From a virus, in IMG/VR virus record IMGVR_UViG_3300012642_000011, positions 192,001-256,000 of that record: a stretch of 64,000 nt of DNA; one strand, given 5' to 3'. Positions 40,778 through 61,127 of this stretch are shown here, in pieces. The translations under genes and the position numbers were made by a program. Each line of letters starts with the position of its first letter. The first letter of the stretch is position 1. The notes beneath the pieces were generated by a model that did no database searches, was not told the DNA's origin, and saw only the letters and a list, made by a program, of their open reading frames with translations.

Positions 40778-40860
40778 GTTCTCTCCTTGAGAGTGATGGT
40801 CTTGGGTTGTTCCCTTGACCTGATGAATCAATAGTACCACGAGGGACGCTCCATGTTCAA
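40778..40860 (-). promoter_or_regulatory. conserved promoter-leader module (copy A): -35 TTGAAC, 18-nt spacer containing GGAGCGTCC, -10 TACTAT, leader stem-loop GGTCAAGGGAACAACCCAAGACC, SD AAGGAGAG
   Basis: Near-identical modules at 44490-44573, 45776-45860, 46231-46320, 51853-51930, 52454-52537, 52948-53035, 53523-53607, 55109-55200, 56213-56296, 57233-57300, 61043-61127 and degenerate copies elsewhere. Confidence 0.65.
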
Positions 40861-40934
40861 GTACCCTATGGAGTAATTTTTACGGCACGCTCGGCAGCAC
40901 AATCGCTGCGTCATTACCGTCTTGTAATGCTTGA

Positions 40935-41016
40935 TTGACGAGATTGCGTTTATGGTGTAGGCTGGTTTCAGAACAACAGATCAGGGCGACTCGCCCCTCA
41001 CAGAAACGAGAACATC
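40935..41016 (+). promoter_or_regulatory. plus-strand promoter-leader family copy 1: TTGACG-17-TAGGCT, leader ..TCAGAACAACAGATCAGGGCGACTCGCCCCTCACAGAAACGAGAACATC-ATG
   Basis: About 50-nt leader 90% identical to 41635-41683, including hairpin GGGCGACTCGCCC. Confidence 0.55.
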
Positions 41017-41481
41017 ATGAGCACGAACTTCTACCTTGTCCCCGCCGTTGCCGTGCAGTCGGGAATGGATCTGTCGTGGCTGACGAAGGTTCATCTGGGC
41101 AAGCGCTCCAATGGTCGGGTCATGCTTCAGGCGCTTGTGGGCGAGTGGGACAACGATAACACTGATGTCCTCAAGAAGCAGTCGGATTACGTGAGGATGG
41201 GTGCACCGCAGTTCTCCTTCATGGACGCTCCGGTGATCGACACGTGGGCTGTGATGCGCTCCATGCTGGTTTCCGGCGAGTTCGACGTGGTTGATGAGTA
41301 TGGACGGAGCGGGCTGATGATGGAGTTCATTAAGAGCGTGGAGGTTGACCCCTCTGGCGCTCACAGGGAGATGATGGACTACTTCGATTCGCTGAATCCC
41401 GGACACTACAGCCTGCCTTATCGTGAGCACCACTTCATGGACGATCAGGGATTCTCCTTCTCCGTCTCGGATTTCTCCTGA
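41017..41481 (+). CDS. hypothetical 154-aa protein
   Basis: ORF after conserved plus-strand leader. Confidence 0.5.
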   Translation: MSTNFYLVPAVAVQSGMDLSWLTKVHLGKRSNGRVMLQALVGEWDNDNTDVLKKQSDYVRMGAPQFSFMDAPVIDTWAVMRSMLVSGEFDVVDEYGRSGLMMEFIKSVEVDPSGAHREMMDYFDSLNPGHYSLPYREHHFMDDQGFSFSVSDFS

Positions 41482-41604
41482 TCGTTTCACGTCGGGCGGG
41501 GCTGGCTACGGCTGGCCCCGTTTGATGTTTGGTCAGATCGGGGGACACAGAATCACGCACTACCCACCCCATCGACTCGGTGACAGATTGAAAGAATGAG
41601 CGGT

Positions 41605-41683
41605 TTGTCATCATTGCCATCATGGTGTAATCTGTTCTCAGAACAACCGATCAGGGCGACTCGCCCCTCACAGAAACGAGAAC
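41605..41683 (+). promoter_or_regulatory. plus-strand promoter-leader family copy 2: TTGTCA-17-TAATCT plus the same conserved leader
   Basis: See 40935-41016. Confidence 0.55.
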
Positions 41684-42175
41684 ATGATGACCCTCACTGA
41701 CAAGGATTACAACACCACCACCGTGGTTGACATGGCGGGAGAGAGCCTCTCGCTGATCGAGTTCTTCGGCGACAATGCCAAGCACGGCTCCGTGGAGTTC
41801 TCTGAGGACGGTGATCGCGCCGATGTGATCATCGTGGAGGATCTGGAGTGGCACCAGAAGCGCGATCCCGAGCTGATGGAGAAGCTGACCGATGAGGAGG
41901 GTTGGCTCACCGAGGGCACCCGTGAAATCATCGCGCGTAACCTGTCCAAGATCGTGGGCGGCTCCGTCGAGATCGAGCTGAGCGAGATGGACGCTCACCC
42001 TGACAGCCCCTCCGTTGCCTTCGTCGCCAGCTACCATGTGAACCCTGAGACCACGCTGGGGACGCTCCACGAGATGTCCTACGGGTTCTACGCTGATGTG
42101 ATCAATGTGACTGATCCCGGCACCTTCGACTCCCCCTACGTGTTCGGCACACTGGCGAACCCCAGCTACTCCTGA
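41684..42175 (+). CDS. hypothetical acidic 163-aa protein
   Basis: ORF after conserved leader; followed by hairpin gatcgacccgc...gcgggtcgatc. Confidence 0.5.
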   Translation: MMTLTDKDYNTTTVVDMAGESLSLIEFFGDNAKHGSVEFSEDGDRADVIIVEDLEWHQKRDPELMEKLTDEEGWLTEGTREIIARNLSKIVGGSVEIELSEMDAHPDSPSVAFVASYHVNPETTLGTLHEMSYGFYADVINVTDPGTFDSPYVFGTLANPSYS

Positions 42176-42424
42176 ACGCACGGATCGACCCGCTCTACTC
42201 CTCATAGGGTGGGCGGGTCGATCTTTTGCGCAGGAGCAGGGGACACAGAATGTGAGCATTGACTGCATCTGCACCTGCTTCCCGTGGTGGTGCCACAAAG
42301 CCCCCACTGCTTCCGGGCGCACCACACAGCGCCACACGGTTCTGACTTGCACTCGGCTCATCATGCTGGTAACCTGATTCCTGTCAGCAACCGCTGGCAC
42401 TGCACTCTGAACAAGGAGACCATC

Positions 42425-42844
42425 ATGAGCGTCATCACCTACCGCTACGACCTGTCCGACCGCGACAACGTCATCGCCACCTCTGCGGAGGTCATGCTGT
42501 GGCAGGCAGGCGAGATGATGGATGAGAACGGCGAGATGCTCGCGCAGAAGTGGGAGGATCACTTCGATGAGTCCAACCTGACCGATGAGGCGCGTGAGCG
42601 CATCGTGGAGGACTTCGCCGCGTTCGTGGGCAACGTGAGCGACGGCGACCTGCTGGCCTACGAGGCGGCTGGTGAGACCTCGGCGCAGATGATCCATGAC
42701 TACTGGCTCACGCGCAACAGGCACGGTGCTGGCTTCTGGGATCGTGGTCTGGGGGAGCTGGGGGATCGCCTGACCGAACTGGCGCAGTCGGACGGCACCT
42801 ACAACCTCTTCGAGACCAACGACGGCGAGTGGGACTACATGTGA
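42425..42844 (+). CDS. highly acidic 139-aa protein (candidate DNA-mimic / anti-restriction-like)
   Basis: Start MSVITYRYDL after aaggagaccatc; about 30% D/E; motif RNRHGAGFWDRG. Confidence 0.45.
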   Translation: MSVITYRYDLSDRDNVIATSAEVMLWQAGEMMDENGEMLAQKWEDHFDESNLTDEARERIVEDFAAFVGNVSDGDLLAYEAAGETSAQMIHDYWLTRNRHGAGFWDRGLGELGDRLTELAQSDGTYNLFETNDGEWDYM

Positions 42845-43062
42845 TCCAGTGAGGACGCTCCGCGTGCTACCCGTGACACCACAGGAAGCACGCGGAGCGG
42901 TCGCCGTGAAGGGCTGGCAGGGCGGGAGGCTTCACGGTCTCCCGCTTTTTGTGTCAAGGGCAAGGGGACACAGTTCTCACTGAATCATGCATGCCCTCGT
43001 GTGGCATCCACGGCGGTGATGGTGTAGGATGGGGGAGTCCCACACGGCAAGGAGCGATGACG

Positions 43063-43260
43063 ATGGCGACCATGACCACCGATGTCACCACGGTTCGCAT
43101 TGAGCACATGGTGCGCGTGACCACGTTCGGTCGCAACCACGCCTTCAGCACGCCTCCCATGCTCGCCTCCAAGGGGCGACAGTGGGCGGAGATGGAGTCG
43201 GGTGAGCCGGACACGGTGAAGGTGGTTGTGGAGTGCGATGCCTACTGCTGGTGCCAGTGA
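43063..43260 (+). CDS. small 65-aa protein with C-terminal CDAYCWC
   Basis: SD aaggagcg; start choice between two close ATGs is uncertain. Confidence 0.35.
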   Translation: MATMTTDVTTVRIEHMVRVTTFGRNHAFSTPPMLASKGRQWAEMESGEPDTVKVVVECDAYCWCQ

Positions 43261-43453
43261 GGTGTGTAGGCGGGCGTGAGGGTGAGGGTGGGCAACAGGG
43301 GACACAGAATGTGTTCTTATGCTCGCGCTGTCGCCCTGACGACTGAAACAATGGGAGAGCGCCCTGTTTGACTTCAGTGTGAATGTGTGGCAGACTGTTC
43401 TTCAGTAGGTCGGGGGAGCCGCCCCTGACCATCTACTCTCAAGGGGAGAAAAC

Positions 43454-43906
43454 ATGTCGAAGACCGACTGGACTGCTTTCGTGGATGCCGCCGACTCCAT
43501 CCGCACGCGTGGCGACGAGCAGACGCACCTGATCTACCCGGACGGCACCTTCGAGGTGTTCGAGCGCTACAGCACCGACGCTCCCGACACCCCCGAGGAC
43601 GCGCTTCAGTGGGAGGGCAAGGACGACGAGGAGCGCGACGTGATCACGGGCGCGCAGGGGTGGAGCATCGCCGAGGGAATGAGCGGGGCGTTCCGCTACG
43701 ACGGCCCTCTGATGCACGAGTCGGAGTTCTTCTCCCCCGGCATCCTCTCCTGCCTGATGTGGGACCGGGACGCTCCCCTGCTGGTCGCCACGGCGCATGT
43801 GGCTGACTACTCCCCCGAGGCGTACGACGAGGGCGAGGAGGACTCTCAGGTGGGCGAGGTGTTCTCGTGGGTGACCCTCTACCGCGAGCCGGAGACCGAC
43901 GACTGA
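43454..43906 (+). CDS. hypothetical acidic 150-aa protein
   Basis: SD aaggggagaaaac-ATG; terminator hairpin ccccgcctgactcccacgaggatgatggcgggg downstream. Confidence 0.5.
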   Translation: MSKTDWTAFVDAADSIRTRGDEQTHLIYPDGTFEVFERYSTDAPDTPEDALQWEGKDDEERDVITGAQGWSIAEGMSGAFRYDGPLMHESEFFSPGILSCLMWDRDAPLLVATAHVADYSPEAYDEGEEDSQVGEVFSWVTLYREPETDD

Positions 43907-44108
43907 CCGACACTACCAACGCCCCGCCTGACTCCCACGAGGATGATGGCGGGGCGTTGTGTTGTGGGGGGAATCGGGAACAGGGGACACAATATGTGTC
44001 ATCAACGACAACGGGTTACCACGGCGAACAGGGTGACGCTGTGTGGACATGCGAACGCCCCGCCCGTGCTCCTTGGTCCAAGGGTTCAGGCGGGGCTGTC
44101 GTGCTGGT

Positions 44109-44489
44109 TCAGTTCTCCCAGTAACGCGGGTTGGTCACCTCTTCGCCGTCGTAGTCGAGAGCAAGGATGACGCGGCCGATCTGATCGGCGTAGATGTTGG
44201 AAGCGGTGTAGTGAGTGACGATCTCGCTTGCGCGCTTGTAGGTCACAGTGACCGTATAGGTGTCGGAGAACGTGCAGACGATCTTCACATCCATGATACG
44301 CGCGCAGCCGGAGCGCTTGCCGGTCTTAGTGAAGGGGAGAATGTTTGCATGGAAGGAGAGGCTCCCGCGCTCTTCCGAACCGTAGAGGAAGTCACGCGCA
44401 CCCACGGCGGCGAAGTTCCAGAAGCCGATCTGCTGACGGATGGTATCGGCGACCTGCTTGTACTGGGTATCCTTGATGGTCTGCGACAT
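44109..44489 (-). CDS. hypothetical 126-aa protein
   Basis: Module B upstream; shares its first 6 codons (MSQTIK) with the unrelated 53148..53522 gene. Confidence 0.5.
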   Translation of the reverse strand: MSQTIKDTQYKQVADTIRQQIGFWNFAAVGARDFLYGSEERGSLSFHANILPFTKTGKRSGCARIMDVKIVCTFSDTYTVTVTYKRASEIVTHYTASNIYADQIGRVILALDYDGEEVTNPRYWEN

Positions 44490-44842
44490 GTTCTCTCCTT
44501 GAGAGTTGTGGTCTTGGGTGGCTCCCTCGACCTGATGACTCTTACTCTACAGCACAGGACGCTCCACGGTCAAGTCCCCTATGGAATAATTTTTACGGCA
44601 TGCTCGGTAGGGTAACGCTTAGGGGACACAATGCGCATGGGGCAACCAAGCGCAATGGCGACTGTGAATTCAGGATTGAACCGTAAGTTAAAATCGACAT
44701 TTTGACATAAAATAGCGAGAAAATGCTATAAATGAATGGCGATTTTAACTTCTTTTGCGCAGCCATGGGCGGCATCACGCTTGTCGTGATGCCCCGCCGT
44801 CCTCCCTTGTCGAGAGCGAAGGCGGGGCGCGTGCTCACATGA

Positions 44843-45226
44843 TCACTCGGCGGGAGCGAGGAACGCGGCGACCTCATCATCGGTCAGGGACTCGTAGTGC
44901 GAGTAGCCTTCCTCATCCACGCTCTCACGCACCACCAGCACGGGACCGAACGGGTAAGCCCCCTGCATGATGCCCAGACGGTCGATGACGTGCTTGTGCG
45001 GGTTGGGGCGACCGAACTTGTAGATCCCCTCATCGTCCGCCATGACCTCGATGCCGTCGCCGTAAGCATCGCGCGGCATGTAGGTGATGGTGCCCAGACC
45101 GGCGACCTCACGGAAGGCGGGGAAGTTGTAAGCCTCGGGGTCGGCGTTGATGGTCACCTCGATGGCGCGCGGGGTGGAGTCCAGATCGCCGGGGACGAGA
45201 ACAGCCTTGATGTTCTTCGTGGTCAT
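44843..45226 (-). CDS. paralog family B member 1 (127 aa)
   Basis: MTTKNIKAVLVPGDLDSTPRAIEV... about 65% identical to the 53148..53522 product; real start at Met30 of the tracked ORF after SD ggagagagacc. Confidence 0.5.
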   Translation of the reverse strand: MTTKNIKAVLVPGDLDSTPRAIEVTINADPEAYNFPAFREVAGLGTITYMPRDAYGDGIEVMADDEGIYKFGRPNPHKHVIDRLGIMQGAYPFGPVLVVRESVDEEGYSHYESLTDDEVAAFLAPAE

Positions 45227-45436
45227 GGTCTCTCTCCTTGAGAGTCGTGAGGCTTGCCGGTTGCTTACCCCTTGATGAATCCCACTATACACGACAGTAC
45301 GCGCAGCCGTCAAGCGTATTATCGCCCCTCCAGCAGAGCAATCACTGTATGCTGTGAGGGGACACAGAATTCGAGTTGACGGTTTGAAAAAACCGCCCCA
45401 GTGCTCATAATCAGCACTGGGGCGGCGGGGCGCTTG

Positions 45437-45775
45437 TCAGCGTTCGAGACCAGCCTCGAACGCGGCGATCACGAGGTGTGACACAGTTGAGTAGACATCC
45501 TCGATCCCGCTGTAGCCGGAGCTGTGACCCTCACCATAGGAGTAGTTAAACACTCGATCAGCGATGTGGTCGGGAATGTCGTCGGTCAGGTAGTCATCGC
45601 GGAACTGCTTAGCGTGGCGCTCCCGTTCCTCGCGCTCGATTCGGTAGCGCTCCTCACGCTCGATGCGACGCGCCTCCTGCTTGGCGCGCTCCTCTTCCGC
45701 CTGGGCTTCAGCGAGAGCCTGCTTGGCGGCGTCGAGGGCGGCTTCGGCTGCGATCACTTCTGGGGACTTCTGCAT
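45437..45775 (-). CDS. hypothetical coiled-coil 112-aa protein (AEAQAEEERAKQEARRIEREERYRIEREERER)
   Basis: Conserved module upstream. Confidence 0.5.
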   Translation of the reverse strand: MQKSPEVIAAEAALDAAKQALAEAQAEEERAKQEARRIEREERYRIEREERERHAKQFRDDYLTDDIPDHIADRVFNYSYGEGHSSGYSGIEDVYSTVSHLVIAAFEAGLER

Positions 45776-45999
45776 AATACTCTCCTTGTGGAGTCGTGGT
45801 CTTGGGCTGCTCCCTTGACCTGATGAATCAATAGTACCACGGGGGACGCTCCGCCGTCAAATCTATCAATCGTGGTAGTGCTATAACATCTCGGATTGGT
45901 CGAGGCGCTGGATGACTTAGGTATCAGGGGACACAAGAATTGCGACAACGAGGATAAGAACACGCCCCCATCCTCGCGGTAAGGATGGGGGTGTGTGAG

Positions 46000-46230
46000 T
46001 CAGAATCGGGCGGAACCGGCGAGGATAGCCATGGTGTCAGCCATGGTCTCGCTGTAGCGCATCTTGATCTTCGCGCGCAGGTGCTTCATTCGCAGGATGC
46101 GGCGGATGTGATGCTCGTCCAGTTCAGTCTCACCGGCGAGGGTGTCCAAGTAGATGCCGGAGTACTCGTTGTCGATCTCTTCGGTGATAGCGTCGATGCG
46201 GGCGGCGTCGTCGGCGGTCATCTGCTTCAT
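46000..46230 (-). CDS. hypothetical 76-aa protein
   Basis: Conserved module upstream. Confidence 0.5.
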   Translation of the reverse strand: MKQMTADDAARIDAITEEIDNEYSGIYLDTLAGETELDEHHIRRILRMKHLRAKIKMRYSETMADTMAILAGSARF

Positions 46231-46450
46231 GATTGTCTCTCCTTGAGAGTCGTGGTCTTAGGTTCTTCCCTCGACCTGATGAAAGAAATCTATCACAGAC
46301 ATGGAGCAGGCGTCAAGTCGAGCGGTCAAGATTATTTCATCATCTTCCAGAGGGGACACGGAATATGGTATATGCCACACTTCTTGCATCCATCAGTGTG
46401 AACAGGGCGATGCATGATCACACTGATGGATGCTCACACCTTGCACACTG

Positions 46451-46846
46451 TCAGGAGCGGACTTCCACCATCTCTCCTCGTGAGTTGCACTCCACGGTCT
46501 TACCACTGTAGGTGCCGGAGTCGTGCGTGTAACGGATCAGGCGCTCAGGCAAGTAAGTCCTGCCGTTCGCGCACCAGTATTCGCCGTCATAGACCATCTT
46601 GCTGTAGTGTCCGTCGCCCCATTCGTAGTCCTCCCGCATGGTGACGCTCGTGATCGTGTCACCGATCTCGGACGGGTGCGGGTAAGTGCGCTCTTCCTCC
46701 ACGGTCAGAGCGGCGGTCAGGATTGCGCGCATCCTCTCGACATCATGGTGATCCCACTCATCGAGTTCCCTATGCCCCCATGACGACACGCTGGCGTTCA
46801 GCGCGCGTTCGAGCATGTTATCATCGACTTCGATCATTGTGCTCAT
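46451..46846 (-). CDS. hypothetical 131-aa protein
   Basis: SD aggagagaccATG. Confidence 0.5.
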   Translation of the reverse strand: MSTMIEVDDNMLERALNASVSSWGHRELDEWDHHDVERMRAILTAALTVEEERTYPHPSEIGDTITSVTMREDYEWGDGHYSKMVYDGEYWCANGRTYLPERLIRYTHDSGTYSGKTVECNSRGEMVEVRS

Positions 46847-47219
46847 GGTCTCTCCTTCGAGTTGTGCCCAGCCGTGTGCTGTGCTCTCGTGAGCAATGCT
46901 ACCAGATAATTAACCCGTGGTCAAAGTTGTCTGTCGAGAAGATCAAGGGGACACAATAATGTCCTTGATACCCACACCCGCAGATAACACCACAAGACTG
47001 GGGAACAGCAAGCGGGAACCTTTGCGCAACACGTAGATGGCACACCATATGTGGAGTACAGGTGAGGTGTGCAGGTACTCAAGGGGACACAGTAATTGTA
47101 CTCGGACTGCAGCGTAATCCGCAGAATCACGCTGCTGAACACGCATTGGCGACTTGACCACATCGGTGCTCTGCGGCTACAGTGGAGATAGATCAACACC
47201 CATTTCCAAGGAGAACACC

Positions 47220-52686: not shown

Positions 52687-52695
52687 GGGTCAGGA

Positions 52696-53522: not shown

Positions 53523-53607
53523 GGTATCTCTCCTTGAGAGTTTCGGTCTTGGGCGGTTCCTTCGACCTGATGAGACCATCCTACATGATAGGACGCTCCA
53601 CTGTCCA
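53523..53607 (-). promoter_or_regulatory. conserved promoter-leader module (copy I): TGGACA-18-TAGGAT
   Basis: -10 at 53578-53583, -35 at 53602-53607. Confidence 0.6.
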
Positions 53608-54892: not shown

Positions 54893-55114
54893 TCAGTCCT
54901 CGATGTCCTCTGCAACGGTGTAGTCCGCGCTCAGCGACACCCACTTTGCGCCACGGTAGTTGCCCGAGGACAGCGCGACATACTTCATACCATCGAGCTT
55001 AGCCGACTCCAGCATTTCGATCAGCTCGTCGATGCTCTCCGCTGCGTCGTCCAGCGAGTAGGCCAAGCCGCCGCCGCTGAGGATGATGGTATTCTGATCG
55101 GTGATCTCGCTCAT
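54893..55114 (-). CDS. hypothetical acidic 73-aa protein
   Basis: Module J upstream. Confidence 0.45.
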   Translation of the reverse strand: MSEITDQNTIILSGGGLAYSLDDAAESIDELIEMLESAKLDGMKYVALSSGNYRGAKWVSLSADYTVAEDIED

Positions 55115-55201
55115 GGTCTTCTCCTATGAAATGGTGGTCTTGGGGGATTCCTTGACCTGATGATGAAACTCTACACCACAGGACGCTCCATATGCAAACA
55201 A

Positions 55202-55615
55202 TCAGTTCATCGGGATCATCTTGTCCCAGTCACGGACGAACGTCATGTCCTTGAACGCTTCATGATGAGTATCGCCATAGCGGACGCGCCACTGCTGCAT
55301 CGGTACCAGCCCCTCCCCATTGCGCACCAGTCGCTCGTATCCGGTTTTCGTGTAGCACCCCGACGTGTAGAGAATCTTGCCGTCCTCGGACTCCTGGACG
55401 CGCCGGATGATCTCTTTCGCCAGCCCCTTCCCACGATACTCGGGGCGCACCTCAAGGTCGCACAGAGCCAGTCCCTTTTCCTCGCCCTCCACCACGTGAT
55501 TGTCGTCGTGGTGGAAGTAGCAAAGGTAGGCTACCGGAACACCGTCGATCAGCATGAACGTGTCGATCATGGAGTTCGCCCAGCGCTTCTCCTTGTTAAG
55601 TGTGATGGTGCTCAT
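55202..55615 (-). CDS. GNAT-family N-acetyltransferase
   Basis: Acetyl-CoA-binding motif A LEVRPEYRGKGLAKEII (R-x-x-G-x-G/A). Confidence 0.6.
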   Translation of the reverse strand: MSTITLNKEKRWANSMIDTFMLIDGVPVAYLCYFHHDDNHVVEGEEKGLALCDLEVRPEYRGKGLAKEIIRRVQESEDGKILYTSGCYTKTGYERLVRNGEGLVPMQQWRVRYGDTHHEAFKDMTFVRDWDKMIPMN

Positions 55616-56011
55616 GATGTTCTCCTATGGGGAGTGCGGGTTTATTGCTGATGAGTAGCGGGGCGGGGAGAACTACCACTCCCCGCCCCGCCGTGTATCC
55701 GTTCAGGCGCTTGTGGGCTTTCCACAGTGACCATCAACCCATTGGGGAGGATGATCCACCGCATTTGAGCTTCTTCGAGAGGCTTGAGTGGCGCTCTGTC
55801 CTGTTGTCTTGATCGTAGCACCCTTGTGCTCATGGTGTCAATGCGAGTTCTCCACGGACAAGGACGCTCCACTGGTCTTGGTCTGTCACGCGCTGTTCTG
55901 GGTCTCGCTACTGTCCATCTCGTTCTTCATAGAAGGGACACAATCCCTGCACAGCGAGAGAGGGCGGGGCTTCCACCGTCTCCGGCTTCCGCCCCGCCCT
56001 CTTGGGTGAGG

Positions 56012-56212
56012 TCAGTAGTCCTCGTCCCGCGTCTCGACCCACTCGGCGTAACTGGACGGACTCATCCATTCAATCCGCAGCGGCTGGCCGGAGGCGCTGA
56101 ACCACTGCCCGCACGAGCACTGCTGGTCGCCCTGACCACGGTAGCACTCCACGGTCTCGCCGCAGCCACACTCCCACGTGTGGGTGGGGGTCTCGAACTC
56201 GTAATCCGCCAT
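56012..56212 (-). CDS. 66-aa zinc-ribbon-like protein (WECGCGETVEC...CSCGQWF)
   Basis: Module K upstream. Confidence 0.5.
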   Translation of the reverse strand: MADYEFETPTHTWECGCGETVECYRGQGDQQCSCGQWFSASGQPLRIEWMSPSSYAEWVETRDEDY

Positions 56213-56296
56213 GCTGCTCTCCTTGAGAGTGGTGGTCTTGGGATGTTCCCTTGACCTGATGAGACCAGACTACACGATAGGACGCTCCACTGTCCA
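56213..56296 (-). promoter_or_regulatory. conserved promoter-leader module (copy K): TGGACA-18-TAGTCT
   Basis: -10 at 56267-56272, -35 at 56291-56296; leader hairpin GGTCAAGGGAACATCCCAAGACC. Confidence 0.65.
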
Positions 56297-56433
56297 GTCG
56301 AAAACCGAGAATCTTTCTCCAGAAGGCAGACGGAGCGATCAGGGGACACACATCGAGGCGCGTGTGCGAAGCAGAAACGCCCCGCCATCGTCCTCTCGGG
56401 TGAGGAGTCAGGCGGGGCGGTCTCGGAGTGCTC

Positions 56434-56601
56434 ACTTGCTCCCGAAGGCACTCTGTGCGTTGCGGATCGCGGCGCTCTCACGAACCTTCTCGTCCGCCTC
56501 ATCACGCTTGCGAAGAGTCTCGCGCACGGCACGGCCCCACCGCTTGTTCGACTCGCTGATGACGCGGATGCTGATAGTGTTCTTGCTCTCGTTCTCCATG
56601 A
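56434..56601 (-). CDS. 55-aa basic protein (MENESKNTISIRVISESNKRWGRAVRETLRKRDEADEKV...)
   Basis: Hand translated; SD aaggagagcatc. Confidence 0.35.
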
Positions 56602-56842
56602 TGCTCTCCTTGCTCGGAGTTTGATTGACATGACCATGATAGAACGCGTTTGATGTTCATGTCAAGAGGTTTTCCAGAATTCCAGAGAGCGATCTTCGTG
56701 ACGGACTCATCGAGTGAGCGTGGTGGTTGCTGTCTGGGTGAGCAGGGCAAGGGGACACAGTATTCGTGAGCGCGGTAACGCGATGACACCGCCACGCCCC
56801 GCCTGTACTCTACCACAGAGGGACGGCGGGGCGCTGTGTTAT

Positions 56843-57232
56843 TCAGTCCGCGATCAGAACACCCTGCTCAACAAGGTAGTCGATCATCTTGGAGCGCACC
56901 AGCACCCAGCGGGAGCCATCTCCCTCGAAGTCATCACCGATGGTCTCCCACAGGAACTTGGAAGCATCCTCCATGTGCTCGATGCCGTTCGTGTAGAAAG
57001 TCGGAGCGGACTCAAGCGCCTGCTCACTCATGTCCACACCCAGTGCCACCATGATGACACGATCCTCGGGGCCGTCGTAACCGTTGTCCGTGGCCTCCAT
57101 GACCTCGGGGACGGGCACGCCGCGCTCAATGTGAGCCTCGAAGACCTGACTGATGAACTCGATCTCCACCGTGAGGTCGGGGAAGTTGTCGATAGCGTCG
57201 AAGACCTGATGATCGGTGACCTGCTTCATGTA
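56843..57232 (-). CDS. hypothetical acidic 129-aa protein
   Basis: Start MKQVTDHQVF; module L upstream. Confidence 0.5.
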   Translation of the reverse strand, partial: YMKQVTDHQVFDAIDNFPDLTVEIEFISQVFEAHIERGVPVPEVMEATDNGYDGPEDRVIMVALGVDMSEQALESAPTFYTNGIEHMEDASKFLWETIGDDFEGDGSRWVLVRSKMIDYLVEQGVLIAD

Positions 57233-57403
57233 TCTCTCCTTGAGAGTCGTGGTCTTGGGGGAATCCCTTGACCTGATAAGGCCATCGTAGCGCACGTAGT
57301 CCGCTTTGTCGAATCTGCAGACGGGGTAGCCCCAGAGGCCAAAGGGGACACGGAATCAAGGACAACAGAACAGGCGGGGAGTACTATCACTCCCCGCCTA
57401 CTC

Positions 57404-57715
57404 TCAACCTGCGATGTTCTGGGCGCGCTCGAAGTCCCGTGCCAGATTCAAGTCATCCAGAGCAGTGCAGATAGCCTCGTTGTAGGCGGAGATAGCCTTG
57501 CGGGTGCTCTTGTACGACTCGTCGCTGTGCCAGAGAGCGTAGAAGATGTTCAGCGATGTGAAGACGAACGTGACCCCAGAGGTGATGTACAAAGCAACAA
57601 CCAGCGCCACTGCCTCCATCACGCCGAGCACACAGGCAAGCGCGAACACGAGACCACCGGCGATGAAGAACTTAAACGCGCGATGTGAAAAATCATTGGA
57701 CATCTTGCGGTGCAT
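57404..57715 (-). CDS. small 2-TM membrane protein
   Basis: Hydrophobic helices FFIAGGLVFALACVLGV / VALVVALYITSGVTFVF. Confidence 0.4.
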   Translation of the reverse strand: MHRKMSNDFSHRAFKFFIAGGLVFALACVLGVMEAVALVVALYITSGVTFVFTSLNIFYALWHSDESYKSTRKAISAYNEAICTALDDLNLARDFERAQNIAG

Positions 57716-57774
57716 GCGGGCGGCGGCATGGAGCCTCCGAGCACGCGAGGCATCAGGGGTTTGCGGTGTAGAAA

Positions 57775-59120
57775 ACAGATGCTTAATTACATGCTTTTTG
57801 CTATACTATAATGTAGAAACGGGAAGAAGGTGAAAAATGATACTCACAGAGAAGCATGTGATTCGCAAAAATCACATGAACTTCAATGAGTGCGATCATC
57901 TCGCTTTCTTGAGCAAGAATCTTTACAATTCTACTCTTTTTGCCGTTCGCCAGCACTACTTCAGTAATGGTGAATACCTTAACTACAATAATGCAAATAA
58001 AATCTTCACCATAGAGGGACAAAGCGACTATGTTGCCTTGCCCAGAAAAGTCAGCAAACACACAATGATGCTGGTGGATCGTTCTTTCAAATCCTTTTTC
58101 AAACTCTTGGAGAAGAAAAGAAATGGAGAATATGACAAAACCGTAAGAATCCCAAAATACTTAGACAAAACAAAAGGTCGTCAAGTTGTTCATTATGAAA
58201 AAGGGGCATTGTCCTTCAAGAAGAAGGAGGGGTACCTCTATCTTTCACAGACTAACATATATTTGAAAACCAAGGTAACTTCGGATCAAATTCAATTTGC
58301 TAGAATCGTCCCTCGGGGTGAGCATTATGTGATTGAGGTGGGATATAGGGTTCCTCAGGTAGATAATCTTCACGATAATGGGCGATACCTGTCCCTTGAT
58401 CTTGGGGTGAATAATCTTGTCACAGCAGTGAGCAATGTGACAGCCCCGATACTCTTCAATGGGCGACCATTGAAGAGTATCAATCAGTTTTACAATAAGA
58501 GATTTGCATCCCTTCAGTCTAAACTCGGAGAGGAGGTGAAAAGCAGTAAGCAGATCAAGACTTTGCATCAGAGAAGATTGAACAAAATCAATGATTATCT
58601 CCACAAAGCCTCAAGAATGTTGGTGAATCACGCAGTTGAAAACTCTATCAATACTATAGTTATTGGATACAATAAAGAGTGGAAACAAGACATCAACATT
58701 GGGCGAAGAAACAATCAGAATTTTGCCTCTATTCCTTTTGCAAGGCTTATTGAGATGATTGAATACAAGGCTTCTCTTGTTGGTATCAACACCATCAGAC
58801 AGGAAGAGTCCTATACTTCCAAGTGTTCCTTTCTTGACGATGAGCAGGTGAGGAAAGCCAATTCCTATTCAGGAAGAAGGGTGAGTCGAGGTCTTTTCAA
58901 GACTGGGCAAGGACTTCGCGTTAATGCTGATGTGAATGGTGCCTTGAATATCTTAAGAAAAGCACTGAAAGTATCATGGAATGACCAGTTGTGGTCAGAC
59001 TGTGTAGCGGCGTGCAGTGTGCCGAAGCGGGTCAATATACCAGCTTGAAATGTTAATTCATGTTTATCATGTTTTCAACTAACTGTCCATCTTCTCGTTC
59101 ATCGTAAGTATTTTTTCTCC
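57775..59120 (+). mobile_element. second low-GC IS1341-like tnpB-only element (about 1.35 kb, with about 75-nt AT-rich tail after tnpB stop)
   Basis: AT-rich island; tail ...gtaagtattttttctccttgggaatag is the likely right end / omega-RNA region. Confidence 0.55.
57837..59048 (+). CDS. tnpB: TnpB-like RuvC-fold protein (zinc-finger Cys largely lost)
   Basis: RuvC-I LSLDLGVNNLVTAV, C-terminal YTSKCSFL...NADVNGALNILRK; only one Cys where CxxC...CxxC is expected. Confidence 0.75.
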   Translation: MILTEKHVIRKNHMNFNECDHLAFLSKNLYNSTLFAVRQHYFSNGEYLNYNNANKIFTIEGQSDYVALPRKVSKHTMMLVDRSFKSFFKLLEKKRNGEYDKTVRIPKYLDKTKGRQVVHYEKGALSFKKKEGYLYLSQTNIYLKTKVTSDQIQFARIVPRGEHYVIEVGYRVPQVDNLHDNGRYLSLDLGVNNLVTAVSNVTAPILFNGRPLKSINQFYNKRFASLQSKLGEEVKSSKQIKTLHQRRLNKINDYLHKASRMLVNHAVENSINTIVIGYNKEWKQDINIGRRNNQNFASIPFARLIEMIEYKASLVGINTIRQEESYTSKCSFLDDEQVRKANSYSGRRVSRGLFKTGQGLRVNADVNGALNILRKALKVSWNDQLWSDCVAACSVPKRVNIPA

Positions 59121-59152
59121 TTGGGAATAGTGGTTTCCGAGCGTGAAGCGGT

Positions 59153-59479
59153 TCAGAGGCTCGTGATCTGGTAAGTGTAAGACTTCAGGTCACCCTTGGG
59201 CTTCGTGGAGTAATCAACTTCCACAGCGACGATGCTCCCGCTCTTGTCAAGCACCGGACGCGCCAGTTCGAACAGGGAGTAGCGAGGGTCACTCTCTTCA
59301 GCGGCGCGCAGAGCGGCAGGCTGGTGCAGTTGGAACAGGCGAGTGTTGCGCTCATCCTGTGCGGTCTGCGCACGGGGTGTGCTCCGCTTCGGCTTCACCG
59401 TGGCGGTGACCTTGTTCTCGATGATTGCGCGGGCGGTGGGAGTCATCAGGGACAGGCTGTGCCGCGTGGAAGACTTCAT
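59153..59479 (-). CDS. hypothetical 108-aa protein
   Basis: SD aaggagagcatc. Confidence 0.45.
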   Translation of the reverse strand: MKSSTRHSLSLMTPTARAIIENKVTATVKPKRSTPRAQTAQDERNTRLFQLHQPAALRAAEESDPRYSLFELARPVLDKSGSIVAVEVDYSTKPKGDLKSYTYQITSL

Positions 59480-59511
59480 GATGCTCTCCTTAGGGGAATG
59501 ACTGTGTTGTT

Positions 59512-60039
59512 TCAGTCTTCGAAGCGGATAGCAGGAATGATCTTGAAACCATTGTAGCGGGTCTTTTCAAGATAGTCAAGAAGGTCGATTACCAAGTAGC
59601 CCCACGAGGTGTCAGAGGGGATCTTCCAGCCATCCTCGCCAGCATCAAGGACGCGCCGCACGTCAGCATTGAACCTGTGATCGTCTGCCTGCCTCTTGCG
59701 GATACGAGCAGTAGTGTTCTCCACGTAGGTGAGCACTTCCAGAGCCTCGCTCTTGAACGGTTCAGGAAGAGACTGGGCGCTCTCCATCGTGACGTTCTTG
59801 GCGATTTCAAGATCATCGTCATCGAGGTATTGGTTGGAGTTGATGATCTCATCGACCTCACGATCAGCACGAGTGTCGATGAAGTCGTCGCTGCGAAGGA
59901 AGTACTTTTCGCTTGTCATTTTCACCAACTCGGCGTGACAGAATCGAGCGAACTGATCAGGGGAGTTGATGATGTAGTGGTCTCGCTCACGGGTGTCTTC
60001 ACCTGCCAGCGTGACGATGATGGGGTAGTCAATGCTCAT
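59512..60039 (-). CDS. hypothetical acidic 175-aa protein
   Basis: SD aggagaacatc. Confidence 0.5.
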   Translation of the reverse strand: MSIDYPIIVTLAGEDTRERDHYIINSPDQFARFCHAELVKMTSEKYFLRSDDFIDTRADREVDEIINSNQYLDDDDLEIAKNVTMESAQSLPEPFKSEALEVLTYVENTTARIRKRQADDHRFNADVRRVLDAGEDGWKIPSDTSWGYLVIDLLDYLEKTRYNGFKIIPAIRFED

Positions 60040-60226
60040 GATGTTCTCCTAATGAATAATTGATGAGTCTTGTTCAAGTGCAATGCTATACCGTCATATG
60101 TGTTACGTCAAGCCTCATCCGCGAGCGATCAAGGAGTTCTCACATGGGGACACAACTTGAGCGCAAGCGCACCCCTTGAACAGCAAAAAGTGGGCAGCGC
60201 CTCCACTACCCACCCTTGCTCATGAG

Positions 60227-60520
60227 TCAGGCGCTCTTGACGTTCGTCTGCACCCACTCGATTGCGTCTTCGGGGCTGGCGAACGTTCCGAGGATAACAG
60301 GCTGTGACTTGCGCAGTCGGCGCTTGTGGTCGGAGTGCTTCAGGACCGTGACGTAGCCGCCCAGATGGATCATGTAGTCCACATCGTGACCATTGACATG
60401 CATGCTCATGTTGGTGAAGTCAGTCATGAGGACGGAGAGATCATTGAGCGGGTGGTGCTCGAAGTCAACGATCTTGTTCGCGGTCTCGGTCAGGTTCTCG
60501 GTGACATCTACGGTGTTCAT
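60227..60520 (-). CDS. hypothetical 97-aa protein
   Basis: SD aaggagagaac. Confidence 0.5.
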   Translation of the reverse strand: MNTVDVTENLTETANKIVDFEHHPLNDLSVLMTDFTNMSMHVNGHDVDYMIHLGGYVTVLKHSDHKRRLRKSQPVILGTFASPEDAIEWVQTNVKSA

Positions 60521-60712
60521 GTTCTCTCCTTAGAGTGTCTGCGCGGTGTTGCGCTCTGCAATGAACTCTACCCTACGCGGTGGATCATTGTCAAAGCGCA
60601 ACGCAGTGAATGCATATGGGGACACAATACTCGCGGCAGCGCCATGAGCGCAGCAGCACAACGCCCCGCCGTTCATCCTCGGGGGACTACTGGGCGGGGC
60701 GCTGGTGGGGTC

Positions 60713-61042
60713 TTAGCGGGCGAGCAGAGTCCGCACGGACTGGATCATGCGGGTCACGTGCTTGATGCTCTCCTGCGCGTCGTCCGACTCATCGTAGTGA
60801 CGCTCGGCGGTGAAGATGTTGCGATCACCCTGATAGGCGCGGGCATTCACGCGCATGCCGGTGGGGTGGTTCAGGAACACGCTCACATAGACGCGACCGG
60901 CGGGCTCATTGCTGTCCTTGTCGAACAGGTGCTCGAACTCATCGGACAGGTCGAAGTAGGGAGCGCTGAGCGTGTAGCCGAGAGTCTTGTGCTCGTGCAG
61001 GCGGGTGATGGTCTCGTGGATATTCTTGGTCGTCGGCTCCAT
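60713..61042 (-). CDS. hypothetical 109-aa protein
   Basis: Start MEPTTKN; module M upstream. Confidence 0.5.
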   Translation of the reverse strand: MEPTTKNIHETITRLHEHKTLGYTLSAPYFDLSDEFEHLFDKDSNEPAGRVYVSVFLNHPTGMRVNARAYQGDRNIFTAERHYDESDDAQESIKHVTRMIQSVRTLLAR

Positions 61043-61127
61043 GATGGTCTCCTTGGGGAGTTGTGGGGTTCGGCTCTTCCTCATCCCTTGATGAATCCCA
61101 CTTTACCAGACAGACGCTCCGCTGTCC
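61043..61127 (-). promoter_or_regulatory. conserved promoter-leader module (copy M): TGGACA-17-TAAAGT
   Basis: -10 at 61099-61104, -35 at 61122-61127. Confidence 0.6.

What the first reader, a model, noticed from the sequence alone, without database searches (positions are those of the whole stretch)
40778..61127. More than 16 copies of an about 85-bp start-associated promoter plus leader module in front of unrelated small genes
Minus-strand genes at 40777, 44489, 45775, 46230, 51852, 52453, 52947, 53522, 55114, 56212, 57232 and 61042 are each preceded by a near-identical unit. The unit is a -35 TTGACM/TGGACA, an 17-18 nt spacer that always contains the near-palindrome GGAGCGTCC, a -10 TANNNT, a 5'UTR hairpin GGTC-AA-GGG-loop-CCC-AA-GACC with variable loop, ACTCTCAAGGAGAG, then ATG. 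More degenerate copies carry only the 3' half (genes at 27933, 33825, 35566, 37077). A second family on the + strand (40935-41016, 41605-41683) has its own leader with hairpin GGGCGACTCGCCC. A palindromic core fixed inside the -35/-10 spacer of so many promoters looks like a shared operator, for global repression or activation of the whole array. The conserved structured leader suggests common post-transcriptional control. It is analogous in spirit to the start-associated sequences of cluster K mycobacteriophages but different in sequence and much longer.
Basis: seen in the sequence. Interest (0 to 1): 0.75.

Follow-up and report, generated by a model that had tools for sequence, protein, structure and literature searches.

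The report
Repeated promoter-operator-leader heads before ORFan genes
In a giant uncultured actinobacterial-type mobile element, more than two dozen unrelated small genes each carry the same roughly 90-bp front end (a host-type promoter with a fixed 9-bp site in its spacer, then a structured mRNA leader), which is a phage-style way of switching many genes together and a new variant of a known arrangement, not something unprecedented.

Summary
A profile of the unit finds 18-19 copies in the window (27.9-64 kb, wider than reported). It finds 8-9 more in the next 10 kb of the same contig. The downstream proteins are unrelated ORFans apart from two paralogue pairs. Each gene is its own unit: GC-rich terminator, polar motif ATTnTGTGTCCCC, sigma-A/sigma-70-type promoter, leader, ORF.

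The unit runs 86-94 bp from -35 to ATG. It has two separable parts:
- **Promoter with a fixed site.** GGAGCGTCC sits at about -28 to -20. The site is asymmetric, not a palindrome. All 24 sites lie on one strand, and 13 lie outside these promoters.
- **Leader.** It has a 5'-proximal hairpin H1 with a purine internal loop, supported by compensatory changes, and a weak hairpin H2 that occludes the Shine-Dalgarno sequence.

Copies are only 62-86% identical, so they are not recent duplicates.

Best reading: these are insulated early-type expression cassettes, controlled together through a trans-acting protein at the 9-mer. Repression or roadblock is favoured; activation is not excluded. They share a common mRNA 5' structure. 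The closest analogues are T4-type PeSL cassettes and Cluster A operator/stoperator sites. A second giant element has an unrelated module of the same kind.

Verdict: new variant of a known kind, moderate interest.

The parts
52451..52537 (-). Representative full module (gene 52085-52453). -35 TTGACC 52532-52537; core GGAGCGTCC 52521-52529; -10 TAAGAT 52508-52513; CAUCA 52498-52502; hairpin H1 52475-52497; H2 with SD 52459-52470; ATG 52451-52453.
40775..40860 (-). Full module with exact core, gene 40463-40777
44487..44573 (-). Full module with exact core, gene 44109-44489
45773..45860 (-). Full module with exact core, gene 45437-45775
52945..53030 (-). Full module, core GAAGCGTCC, gene 52696-52947
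53520..53607 (-). Full module with exact core (-35 TGGACA), gene 53148-53522
55112..55198 (-). Full module with exact core, gene 54893-55114
56210..56296 (-). Full module with exact core (-35 TGGACA), gene 56012-56212
46228..46316 (-). Module with promoter and canonical leader but no core in the spacer, gene 46000-46230
57227..57312 (-).
51850..51937 (-). Module with core GGAGCGTCT and variant H1 (GGG...CCC), gene 51454-51852
61040..61128 (-). Module with core GGAGCGTCT and variant H1 (GGG/CCC outer stem, GG/CC inner stem), gene 60713-61042
45224..45313 (-). Module with degenerate core (TGCGCGTAC) and variant H1 (GGGGU/GCCUC), gene 44843-45226
37075..37163 (-). Full module with exact core and variant H1 (GGUGU/GCACC), gene 36802-37077
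33823..33916 (-). Module with degenerate core (GTCACGTCC) and variant H1 (AGGGA/UCCCU), gene 33616-33825
27920..28011 (-). Full module with exact core and variant H1 (GGG/CCC), before a 33-codon ORF 27821-27922
34961..35050 (-). Decayed relic module. H1 is broken and it is followed only by ATG TCG TGA. The next gene (34472-34885) has its own SD.
35564..35608 (-). H2/SD part only, behind a different promoter, gene 35201-35566
43399..43456 (+). Plus-strand leader copy with a fully paired H1 (GGUCGGGGG/CCCCUGACC) and no core, gene 43454-43906
63948..64000 (-). 3' part of the module of the Lsr2-like gene 63453-63950, cut by the window end. The full copy is at L027:9881-10003, with a second core 55 bp upstream.
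40935..41019 (+). Second promoter-leader family, copy 1 (hairpin GGGCGACTCGCCC), gene 41017-41481
41605..41686 (+). Second promoter-leader family, copy 2, gene 41684-42175
41223..41231 (-). Stand-alone core GGAGCGTCC inside plus-strand gene 41017-41481
42060..42068 (-). Stand-alone core inside plus-strand gene 41684-42175
42853..42861 (-). Stand-alone core 9 nt after the stop of plus-strand gene 42425-42844
43768..43776 (-). Stand-alone core inside plus-strand gene 43454-43906
47747..47755 (-). Stand-alone variant GGCGCGTCC inside plus-strand gene 47220-47798
55282..55290 (-). Stand-alone variant GGCGCGTCC inside the GNAT gene 55202-55615
55396..55404 (-). Second stand-alone variant GGCGCGTCC inside the GNAT gene 55202-55615
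55862..55870 (-). Stand-alone core about 20 bp upstream of the -35 of a different promoter (55812-55841)
59256..59264 (-). Stand-alone variant GGCGCGTCC inside gene 59153-59479
59649..59657 (-). Stand-alone variant GGCGCGTCC inside gene 59512-60039
63781..63789 (-). Stand-alone GGAGCGTCT inside the Lsr2-like gene
37512..37520 (-). Stand-alone GGAGCGTCT
19052..19060 (-). Stand-alone exact core in the left arm, inside plus-strand gene 18165-19139
30604..63377 (-). Polar intergenic motif ATWYTGTGTCCCCW, lying between each terminator and the next promoter. There are 34 exact TGTGTCCCC: 30 on the minus strand and 4 on the plus strand (50647, 51315, 61606, plus a near-copy at 63280).
   Evidence: 0.71 expected by chance
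33549..60698 (.). Family of GC-rich terminator hairpins CCCGCC-N12-32-GGCGGG closing the units. There are 11 copies (for example 52647-52679, 53099-53131, 56381-56416), mostly without a T tract.
   Evidence: 0.01 expected by chance

Best explanation
The region is the ORFan arm of a giant uncultured mobile element with actinobacterial hallmarks. Whether it is a phage or a plasmid is undecided. Contigs reach 437 kb.

Nearly every small gene is an insulated single-gene cassette: GC-rich terminator, polar motif TGTGTCCCC, promoter, leader, ORF. One family of cassette heads, 86-94 bp from -35 to ATG, is used by at least 26 unrelated genes.

**Step 1 (anatomy shown, function inferred).** The host housekeeping RNA polymerase starts at a -35 TTGnnn / 17-19 bp spacer (18 in most copies) / TG-TAnnnT promoter, about 7 nt after the -10, at the conserved CAUCA.

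**Step 2 (site shown, binding inferred).** An asymmetric 9-mer, GG(A/C)GCGTC(C/T), is fixed at about -28 to -20. It also occurs as stand-alone copies inside genes whose promoters lack it. I infer it is the site of one trans-acting DNA-binding protein that controls the whole set together. I favour shut-off: occlusion at the promoters and an orientation-dependent roadblock elsewhere, as with mycobacteriophage Cluster A operators and stoperators.

**Step 3 (structure supported by covariation, function inferred).** All these mRNAs begin with the same hairpin H1 about 5 nt from the 5' end. H1 has a 4-bp outer stem, a 2x2 or 3x3 purine internal loop, a 2-3 bp GC inner stem, and an A-started loop of 5-7 nt. 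This gives the mRNAs a common 5'-end structure. The retained internal loop suggests a common recognition site for an RNA-binding factor.

**Step 4 (weakly supported).** A pyrimidine tract CUCUC pairs with the GGAGAG of the Shine-Dalgarno sequence (H2) and may tune translation.

**Step 5 (inferred by analogy).** The shared 90 bp also gives homology for cassette gain and loss, as with T4-type PeSLs.
For: **The module is real and sits before unrelated genes**
- Module copies. Proteins unrelated. No Pfam family in 66 of 67 small proteins scanned.
- Single-gene units with their own terminators can be read directly. The terminator family occurs 11 times against 0.01 expected.
- Promoter-like sites are enriched only in this arm: 26 against 9.0 +/- 3.4, compared with 43 against 39 in the left arm.

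**The core 9-mer**
- 15 exact copies against 0.37 expected. The variant GGCGCGTCC occurs 5 times against 0.34 expected.
- It is always 2 nt after the -35 and 6-8 nt (7 in most copies) before TAnnnT.
- It carries 1.4-2.0 bits per column, while the rest of the spacer, the H1 loop and the flanks are near 0.
- All 24 sites lie on one strand. Thirteen lie outside the modules (binomial 2.4e-4). Five of 6 plus-strand genes carry one, against 4 of 36 minus-strand genes that lack the core in their promoter (Fisher 8e-4).

**Operator and leader occur separately**.

**Hairpin H1**
- 92.5% of cells paired. Four of 7 pairs have changes on both sides. Covariation 0.160 against 0.076 in shuffles (0 of 500 reach it) and 0.03-0.085 in slid controls.
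- At least seven different outer-stem sequences keep pairing: GGUC/GACC, GGGG/CCCC, GGG/CCC, GGUGU/GCACC, AGGGA/UCCCU, GGC/GCC, GGGGU/GCCUC.
- G-U pairs occur on the sense strand only.
- Folding z-scores are -2.6 to -3.4 for canonical leaders.

**Not recent duplicates**
- Nearest-copy identity is 62-86%, with no correlation to genomic distance.

**Cassette turnover and generality**
- A relic module precedes a 2-codon ORF.
- Another giant element has 23 copies of an unrelated promoter plus leader module before its ORFans.
Against: - No transcription start, protein binding or RNA structure has been measured.
- No DNA-binding protein could be identified among 67 neighbouring small proteins. The only exceptions are two Lsr2-like proteins, and that family is not known for specific 9-mers.
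- The information-content comparison is partly circular, because copies were picked by having the core.
- The -35 hexamers of core-bearing promoters are on average weaker than those of neighbouring promoters without the core. This fits an activator as well as a repressor.
- Internal sites in plus-strand genes are antisense to those genes. That differs from Cluster A stoperators, whose orientation follows transcription (PMC9283540).
- The association 'internal site only where the promoter lacks the core' is not significant (0/11 against 8/42, p=0.18).
- The structural alignment was fitted to the model, which inflates pairing (caveat).
- H2 shows almost no covariation.
- The one diverged relative available (L016) has a different promoter and leader before the homologous gene.
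Confidence: 0.55

Rival explanations
1. Same anatomy, but the 9-mer is an activator box, not an operator. A factor bound at about -24 would adapt or appropriate the housekeeping sigma, so that promoters with poor -35 hexamers fire only when the factor is present. Precedents are the PafBC -26 element in mycobacteria and the MotA box of T4 middle promoters.
For: - The core spans about -28 to -20 and contains GTC. The TTG of the -35 is kept, but the ACA is lost (0.2-0.5 bits).
- Core-bearing promoters have weaker -35 hexamers (TGGACA, TTGCAC, TTGCGC, GTAGAC) than core-less neighbours (TTGACA, TTGACT).
- PafBC promoters combine a canonical -10 with a factor-specific element at -23 to -28 centred on GTC and lack a -35 (PMC8635444).
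Against: - By my recollection of the PafBC consensus (TGTCRGTG-N8-TAnnnT), the GTC here lies 8 nt from the -10, against 12 nt there, so the geometry differs. The sequence is also different.
- Several core-bearing promoters have good -35 hexamers (TTGACA three times, TTGACC, TTGACG) and would probably fire unaided.
- Thirteen stand-alone sites inside genes or away from any -10 have no role in an activator model.
Confidence: 0.25
2. No trans-acting regulator is involved. The units are simply strong promoter plus ribosome-binding cassettes that spread and are homogenised by recombination, as PeSL-like mobile regulatory cassettes. The conserved 9-mer and the hairpin would be cis features that make a good promoter and a stable mRNA, or would be hitch-hiking sequence.
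For: - T4-type PeSLs are about 100-bp composite promoter/stem-loop/SD motifs flanking ORFans, and they mediate shuffling (PMC2839356, PMC4122927).
- A relic module is present.
- A diverged relative has another head on the homologous gene.
- A second giant element has its own module family.
Against: - Copies are only 62-86% identical, and similarity does not fall with distance. Homogenisation is therefore weak, yet the 9-mer is nearly invariant.
- The 9-mer also occurs 13 times outside modules, always on one strand.
- The purine internal loop of H1 is kept although it weakens the hairpin.
Confidence: 0.12
3. The 9-mer, like TGTGTCCCC, is a genome-level polar DNA signal that merely tolerates a position in promoter spacers. 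It would guide a translocase, mark replication or recombination, or define cassette boundaries. It would not be a transcriptional site.
For: - Strict single-strand orientation independent of local gene direction, 24:0. The same holds for TGTGTCCCC, 54:5.
- An FtsK/SpoIIIE-like gene and secretion or translocation ATPases are on the element.
Against: - The position relative to -35 and -10 is fixed to within 1-2 bp in 19 promoters. This is hard to explain without a role in initiation.
- The density is uneven and tied to one promoter family.
Confidence: 0.06
4. The units are single-strand promoters of a conjugative leading region (Frpo type), or miniature transposable elements.
For: - The one-stranded array of small acidic ORFans, next to secretion-ATPase genes, resembles plasmid leading regions (PMC11541004).
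Against: - Folding either DNA strand does not pair the -35 and -10 into a long hairpin. Only H1 and unrelated local hairpins form.
- There are no terminal inverted repeats and no conservation outside the -35 to ATG span (about 0 bits upstream).
Confidence: 0.02

Closest known systems
PeSL (promoter-early stem-loop) cassettes of T4-type phages (PMC2839356, PMC4122927)
   Same: - Conserved composite intergenic unit of about 100 bp, made of a sigma-70-type promoter, a stem-loop rich in GGG...CCC, and SD plus ATG.
- Many copies, placed in front of unrelated ORFans in a plastic genome region.
- Each ORFan is transcriptionally insulated.
- Expected to serve as homology for cassette gain and loss. 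A relic head is seen here.
   Different: - Here the stem-loop lies in the transcribed leader after the start site. It is short, has a conserved purine internal loop, and shows RNA-type covariation.
- Termination is done by a separate upstream hairpin family.
- The spacer carries a fixed asymmetric 9-mer.
- The host type is actinobacterial, and there is no sequence or gene homology to T4-type phages.
- Recombination could not be tested, because all available contigs are 99.8-100% identical.
Operator and stoperator sites of Cluster A mycobacteriophages, such as L5 (PMC9283540)
   Same: - A short asymmetric site in more than 20 copies, found both inside promoters and at other places in the genome.
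- Strong orientation bias.
- Actinobacterial setting.
- There it allows one monomeric repressor to silence both initiation and elongation genome-wide.
   Different: - The site here is 9-11 bp and unrelated in sequence. The L5-type 13-mer, recalled from memory, is not enriched.
- It lies in the -35/-10 spacer of many promoters rather than at one early promoter.
- Stand-alone copies lie mostly inside genes rather than in short intergenic gaps.
- In plus-strand genes they are antisense to transcription.
- No repressor gene has been identified.
Start-associated sequences (SAS/ESAS) of Cluster K mycobacteriophages (PMC3203893)
   Same: - A repeated, one-orientation motif containing AGGAG, just upstream of ATG starts of unrelated non-structural genes that have long upstream gaps.
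- The function there is also unknown.
   Different: - SAS is a 13-mer at the ribosome-binding site (GGGATAGGAGCCC), which is absent here.
- ESAS inverted repeats do not support RNA pairing. Here H1 does covary, and the unit includes a complete promoter.
PafBC -26 element and sigma adaptation (PMC8635444); T4 MotA box
   Same: A factor-specific element in the spacer region, upstream of a canonical TAnnnT -10, in Actinobacteria.
   Different: - The sequence and the distance to the -10 differ.
- A partial -35 is kept.
- Stand-alone copies exist.
Module family of another giant element (L033, JGI 3300078403 Ga0643543_0000001, 374 kb)
   Same: - 23 copies in 16 kb of a promoter plus conserved initial transcribed sequence plus SD, before tiny unrelated genes.
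- The element shares the Phage_VG64-family gene at 71% identity.
   Different: - The sequence is unrelated (GGTTGACA-N17-TGCTATAnn-TAACACATAGGGCAACA).
- The spacer is variable, with no core, and there is no H1-type hairpin.
- Some copies have an inverted repeat spanning the -10.
- Genes are tightly packed, without individual terminators.

Membership tests
T4-type PeSL | Conserved composite intergenic motif of about 100 bp with a sigma-70-like promoter, ending in SD and ATG | tested here: met
   86-94 bp from -35 to ATG in 16 or more copies; promoter matches enriched
T4-type PeSL | A stem-loop within the motif that terminates or attenuates upstream transcription | tested here: inconclusive
   H1 is 6-7 bp with an internal loop and no T tract, and lies downstream of the inferred start site. 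A separate terminator family lies upstream.
T4-type PeSL | Flanks ORFans in plastic regions | tested here: met
   Proteins are unrelated and without families; only 3 homologues among 5.8 billion proteins for one of them
T4-type PeSL | Indels or mini-circles bounded by the motifs | not testable with these tools
   All contigs of the element are 99.8-100% identical. Only indirect hints exist: a relic module and a different head in relative L016.
T4-type PeSL | Resides in a T4-like myovirus | tested here: not met
   No nucleotide match in 50,697 phage records; gene content has actinobacterial hallmarks
Cluster A operator/stoperator | Asymmetric short site in more than 20 copies, both in promoters and elsewhere | tested here: met
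   24 sites GG[AC]GCGTC[CT], 11 in promoters of the listed genes and 13 elsewhere
Cluster A operator/stoperator | Orientation follows the direction of transcription | tested here: not met
   Sites in 5 of 6 plus-strand genes are antisense to the gene; orientation follows the array
Cluster A operator/stoperator | The 13-mer consensus of L5-type repressors | tested here: not met
   8 matches at 2 or fewer mismatches against 3.7 expected, none in promoters (consensus recalled from memory)
Cluster A operator/stoperator | Bound by an element-encoded monomeric repressor | not testable with these tools
   No DNA-binding family among 67 neighbouring proteins
Cluster K SAS/ESAS | 13-mer GGGATAGGAGCCC 3-7 bp before the start codon | tested here: not met
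   1 match at 2 mismatches against 0.91 expected, in the left arm
PafBC-type -26 element promoters | Canonical -10, no -35, and a factor element at -23 to -28 with GTC at a fixed distance | tested here: not met
   The core is at -28 to -20. Its GTC lies 8 nt from the -10, against 12 nt in the PafBC consensus as I recall it. TTG of the -35 is retained (PMC8635444).
Single-strand (Frpo-type) leading-region promoters | A long hairpin in one DNA strand that reconstitutes a double-stranded -35 and -10 | tested here: not met
   DNA folds of both strands of two modules
Any Rfam RNA family (for the leader) | Match to a curated covariance model | tested here: not met
   No gathering-level hit in the window. 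No leader hit at E<=1 in 51.8-57.4 kb.
MITE or other small transposable element | Terminal inverted repeats and target duplications around a conserved unit | tested here: not met
   Conservation stops at the -35 (about 0 bits upstream) and at the ATG

The most novel reading that the evidence does not exclude
The array would be a polar cassette system with three element-specific layers of global control that have not been described together:
1. An asymmetric 9-mer acting both as a promoter operator and as an orientation-dependent roadblock across the array.
2. A one-stranded boundary motif (ATTnTGTGTCCCC) in every intergenic gap, serving cassette recombination or directional DNA handling.
3. 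A new structured 5' leader RNA, a hairpin with a tandem purine internal loop, read by a dedicated RNA-binding regulator.
Probability: 0.15. Interest if true: 0.8.

Novelty: new variant of a known kind. Interest (0 to 1): 0.5.

Why it matters
- **A regulon defined by sequence alone.** If the reading is right, one short DNA site and one RNA hairpin define the early or host-takeover regulon of a very large, widespread and so far uncultured actinobacterial element. More than 26 ORFans are marked as co-regulated without any homology information.
- **A handle for finding new genes.** The module can be used to pick out anti-defence or takeover genes.
- **Parts for engineering.** It offers a compact promoter, operator and leader for Actinobacteria.
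- **A testable case.** It bears on how giant phages or plasmids keep many single-gene cassettes insulated yet coordinated.
- **More open questions.** The two strictly one-stranded motifs are harder to explain and may point to a directional DNA process.

Tried and rejected
- **Identity of the element.** There was no nucleotide match in INPHARED phages. The module pattern was absent from IMG/VR and from GTDB species genomes. Nine single pattern hits in JGI metagenomes scored only 10-17 bits with the model and are chance matches.
- **Protein searches.** GyrA-like and AAA_10 proteins gave only about 25-33% identity matches.
- **Host through the TnpB insertion.** It has no close relative in 185,579 species genomes.
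- **Literature on skin or cheese jumbo phages.** This gave no link. The habitat guess is therefore dropped.
- **Regulator hunt.** Pfam and PHROGs searches on module genes, plus a Pfam scan of 67 small proteins, found no DNA- or RNA-binding family.
- **Strain comparison for cassette indels.** This was impossible, because all contigs from several studies are 99.8-100% identical.
- **Local tandem spread.** Tested and not found (Mantel 402/2000).
- **Protein properties.** Module genes are no more acidic or smaller than their neighbours.
- **Other readings tested.** The single-strand promoter reading, Rfam membership of the leader, SAS identity and L5-type stoperator identity all came out negative.

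Full report
**What is there**

Reading the minus strand upstream of the listed starts shows the unit directly. An nhmmer profile built from eight copies finds 18 hits with E<1e-5 in the window, from 27.9 kb to 61.1 kb, including one on the plus strand. A covariance model of the leader (R1) finds 18 window copies at E<1e-4. It finds eight further distinct copies in the 10 kb beyond the right end of the window. That stretch was reached through the Lsr2-like gene on contig ena:ERZ27289831:k141_11150, 332 kb. The array is therefore larger than the finding's coordinates.

The proteins behind the units are unrelated, except for two pairs: 45226/53522 at 68% identity and 35566/43454 at 27%. They have no Pfam family and almost no PHROG. 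One of them has only three homologues among 5.8 billion proteins.

**Cassette architecture**

The sequence of 51.3-57.4 kb shows that nearly every gene is its own unit.
- **Terminator.** A GC-rich hairpin of the family CCCGCC-N12-32-GGCGGG occurs 11 times against 0.01 expected. Most copies have no T tract.
- **Polar motif.** About 30-45 nt further on lies ATWYTGTGTCCCCW. There are 34 exact TGTGTCCCC against 0.71 expected. Orientation is 54 co-oriented to 5 opposite in the window plus extension.
- **Promoter, leader and ORF** follow.

Sigma-70-like promoter matches are enriched here, 26 against 9.0 +/- 3.4, and 21 are on the minus strand. They are not enriched in the left arm, 43 against 39 +/- 6.5.

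**Anatomy of the family-1 head**

The unit is 86-94 bp from -35 to ATG.
- **Promoter.** -35 TTGnnn, a spacer of 17-19 bp (18 in most copies), and -10 TAnnnT, mostly preceded by TG. The T, A and T of the -10 are invariant.
- **Core.** GGAGCGTCC begins 2 nt after the -35 and ends 6-8 nt (7 in most copies) before the -10, so it spans about -28 to -20.
- **Start region.** CAUCA lies about 7 nt after the -10 and is the inferred start.
- **Hairpin H1.** GGUC-RA-GGG-loop5-CCC-RA-GACC.
- **Linker and H2.** CUCUC-AAG-GAGAG contains the AAGGAG Shine-Dalgarno sequence, which ends 4-9 nt (4-7 in most copies) before the ATG.

**Are the conserved parts selected, or just young copies?**

Nearest copies are only 62-86% identical over 98 nt, and similarity does not fall with distance (Spearman 0.09; Mantel 402/2000). 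Conservation is concentrated. The nine core columns carry 1.4-2.0 bits, TTG carries 1.0-1.7, and the -10 T, A and T carry 2.0. The rest of the spacer, the region upstream of the -35 and the H1 loop are near zero. One caveat applies: the copies were chosen for having the core.

The two halves are separable. Leaders occur without the core (46230, 57229, 43454(+), L027:2155-2242). Cores occur without the leader (for example 55862, L027:9837).

**The 9-mer**

It is not a useful palindrome, because only the outer GGA/TCC are symmetric. Exact copies number 15 against 0.37 expected, and all lie on the minus strand. The variant GGCGCGTCC occurs 5 times against 0.34 expected, also all on the minus strand. 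Control permutations of the same letters average 0.3 copies.

With GG[AC]GCGTC[CT] there are 24 sites, split 24:0 by strand. Thirteen lie outside family-1 promoters (binomial 2.4e-4). Five of six plus-strand genes of the array carry one inside or just after the gene, against 4 of 36 minus-strand genes whose promoter lacks the core (Fisher 8e-4). Genes with the core in their promoter have none inside (0/11 against 8/42), but this difference is not significant (p=0.18).

A site fixed to within 1-2 bp in 19 promoters, and also present as stand-alone oriented copies, is what a DNA-binding protein with an asymmetric site would give. The known precedent is the Cluster A mycobacteriophage repressor. 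It binds more than twenty asymmetric 13-mers in promoters and elsewhere, and it blocks initiation and, depending on orientation, elongation (PMC9283540). The difference here is that orientation follows the array rather than the local gene. I therefore file it as 'works like', not as a member.

Activation is a live alternative. In mycobacteria, PafBC reads a -26 element with a conserved GTC upstream of a canonical -10 and replaces -35 recognition (PMC8635444). The -35 hexamers of core-bearing promoters are also weaker than those of neighbouring promoters. Against activation:
- Several core-bearing promoters have good -35 hexamers.
- Stand-alone intragenic sites have no role in that model.

**The leader RNA**

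Minimum-energy folds of individual leaders give H1 and H2, with z-scores of -2.6 to -3.4 for canonical copies. On the model-guided alignment of 26 distinct copies:
- H1 is 92.5% paired.
- Four of seven pairs change on both sides (U-A to G-C five times; C-G to G-C or U-A three times).
- The covariation score is 0.160, against 0.076 +/- 0.010 in shuffles (0 of 500 reach it) and 0.03-0.085 when partners are slid.

The alignment leans towards the model. However, the variant stems can be read by eye: GGGG/CCCC, GGG/CCC, GGUGU/GCACC, AGGGA/UCCCU, GGC/GCC, GGGGU/GCCUC, and a long stem before the second Lsr2 gene. G-U pairs occur on the sense strand, which favours RNA over a DNA cruciform.

The internal loop is always purine-rich: AA/AA, GA/AA, AA/GA, GA/GA, or 3x3 such as CGA/AAA. 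Keeping a destabilising loop suggests recognition by a factor rather than mere stability. The start about 5 nt from the 5' end also fits the classic protective 5' hairpin. That last point rests on my knowledge of E. coli ompA-type stabilisers and was not tested.

H2 is 84.6% paired but barely covaries. A pyrimidine tract ACUCY a few nucleotides before GGAG is common to many other leaders of the element and to the relative L016. H2 is therefore a weak claim. The leader matches no Rfam family.

**What the element is**

The left 24 kb has 40% GC. It and the adjoining flank just outside the window (L031) encode Pol III alpha, a clamp-loader subunit, a PD-(D/E)XK nuclease, a GyrA-like protein, a RadA-like protein, Tad-type secretion ATPases (one with an intein), T2SSF proteins and an AAA_10 ATPase.

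The right arm has 52-60% GC. It holds ORFans, two TnpB genes, Lsr2-like proteins, a Phage_VG64/phrog_478 protein and a Phage_gp86 hit. Homologues of the VG64-like protein are named from Micrococcales. Contigs reach 437 kb. Copies from many samples in ENA, JGI and Logan are 99.8-100% identical.

I could not decide between phage and plasmid, nor name a host.

**Comparison**

- **T4-type PeSL cassettes** are the best functional analogue. They are about 100 bp, with promoter, GGGG...CCCC stem-loop and SD, flank ORFans, and act as recombination linkers (PMC2839356, PMC4122927). A decayed head before a two-codon ORF, and a different head on the homologous gene of a relative, fit cassette turnover. 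Recombination itself could not be tested.
- **A second giant element** (L033, 374 kb) carries 23 copies in 16 kb of an unrelated promoter plus conserved-leader unit. The phenomenon is therefore general and the sequence is element-specific.
- **Cluster K SAS** is a looser analogy (PMC3203893).
- **From memory only, not verified here:** the early region of Streptomyces phage phiC31 (many conserved early promoters with repressor-binding inverted repeats and tail-less terminators) and the SPO1 host-takeover module look similar in logic.

**Verdict**

This is a new variant of a known kind of phage- or plasmid-type regulatory cassette, with a candidate new cis-regulatory RNA hairpin and two unexplained one-stranded DNA motifs. 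Interest is moderate.

Noticed in passing
window 30604-63377 (34 exact copies; list); also L027:1-9950 and L016: The motif ATWYTGTGTCCCCW sits in nearly every intergenic gap, between the terminator and the next promoter. It is 54:5 co-oriented with the array. It keeps that orientation even in the plus-strand gene block at 41-44 kb. It is conserved at equivalent places in a diverged relative. No flanking conservation and no fixed distance to a promoter were seen.
   Followed up: partly
window 24540-27800: A non-coding tract of about 1.8 kb almost free of G on the plus strand flips at about 26.4 kb to a G-rich, C-poor tract. Between them lie TGTGGATAA (twice) and TGTGGACAA, which resemble DnaA boxes, at 26120-26190. 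There are also five or more copies of GGGTGTGCGCA(T/C)A about 60-70 bp apart at 26425-26790. Genes on both sides point towards this region. GC content jumps from 40% to 52-60%.
   Followed up: no
window 55755-55791 (-): A near-threshold match to the Rfam abiF RNA motif (36.3 bits, gathering score 37). It lies in a leader of about 190 nt between a strong promoter (55812-55841) and a terminator-like hairpin (about 55650-55700), just before a GNAT acetyltransferase gene (55202-55615). This could be a cis-regulatory or antitoxin-like RNA.
   Followed up: partly
window 34961-35050 (-): A decayed family-1 module. Its only ORF is ATG TCG TGA, and it lies 60 nt upstream of the SD of the Phage_VG64/RDF-like gene.
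   Followed up: yes
window 51250-51360 and 61540-61615 (-): A third promoter family in two copies: GGGGACACAATAT...TTRCAT-N17-TAGGYT-GGCACC-ATG. It has no Shine-Dalgarno sequence, so the mRNA is probably leaderless. An inverted copy of the polar motif lies upstream. At 51315/51350 the two motif copies form an inverted pair.
   Followed up: no
window 37786-39246 (+) and 57837-59048 (+): Two TnpB (OrfB_IS605 / Cas12f1-like TNB) genes lie in low-GC islands inside the array. Several metagenome contigs end at them or at module repeats. No close relative was found in GTDB species genomes.
   Followed up: partly
window 11899-14625 (+): A T2SSE-type secretion ATPase of 908 aa is interrupted by a homing-endonuclease (intein-like) domain. 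It is flanked by two T2SSF genes, a TadZ/ParA-like gene, an RcpC-like gene and a second T2SSE ATPase.
   Followed up: no
L033:1853-2112 and L033:200-15400: Another giant element (374-kb contig) has a 13-bp tandem repeat AAAAATAGGTTTG (about 17 copies). It also has 23 copies of a promoter-leader module, GGTTGACA-N17-TGCTATAnn-TAACACATAGGGCAACA. In some copies the spacer is complementary to the leader, giving a hairpin that spans the -10.
   Followed up: partly
window 34109-64000 compared with loci L001-L006 and L019-L030: Contigs from many samples in three source collections (ENA, JGI, Logan) are 99.8-100% identical over up to 20 kb. The element is clonal and widespread.
   Followed up: partly
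window 52560-52600 (-): A strong 16-17 bp inverted repeat (CCATGCATGAATAGG...CCATTCATGCATG) lies just upstream of the 52453 module, in addition to the usual terminator.
   Followed up: no
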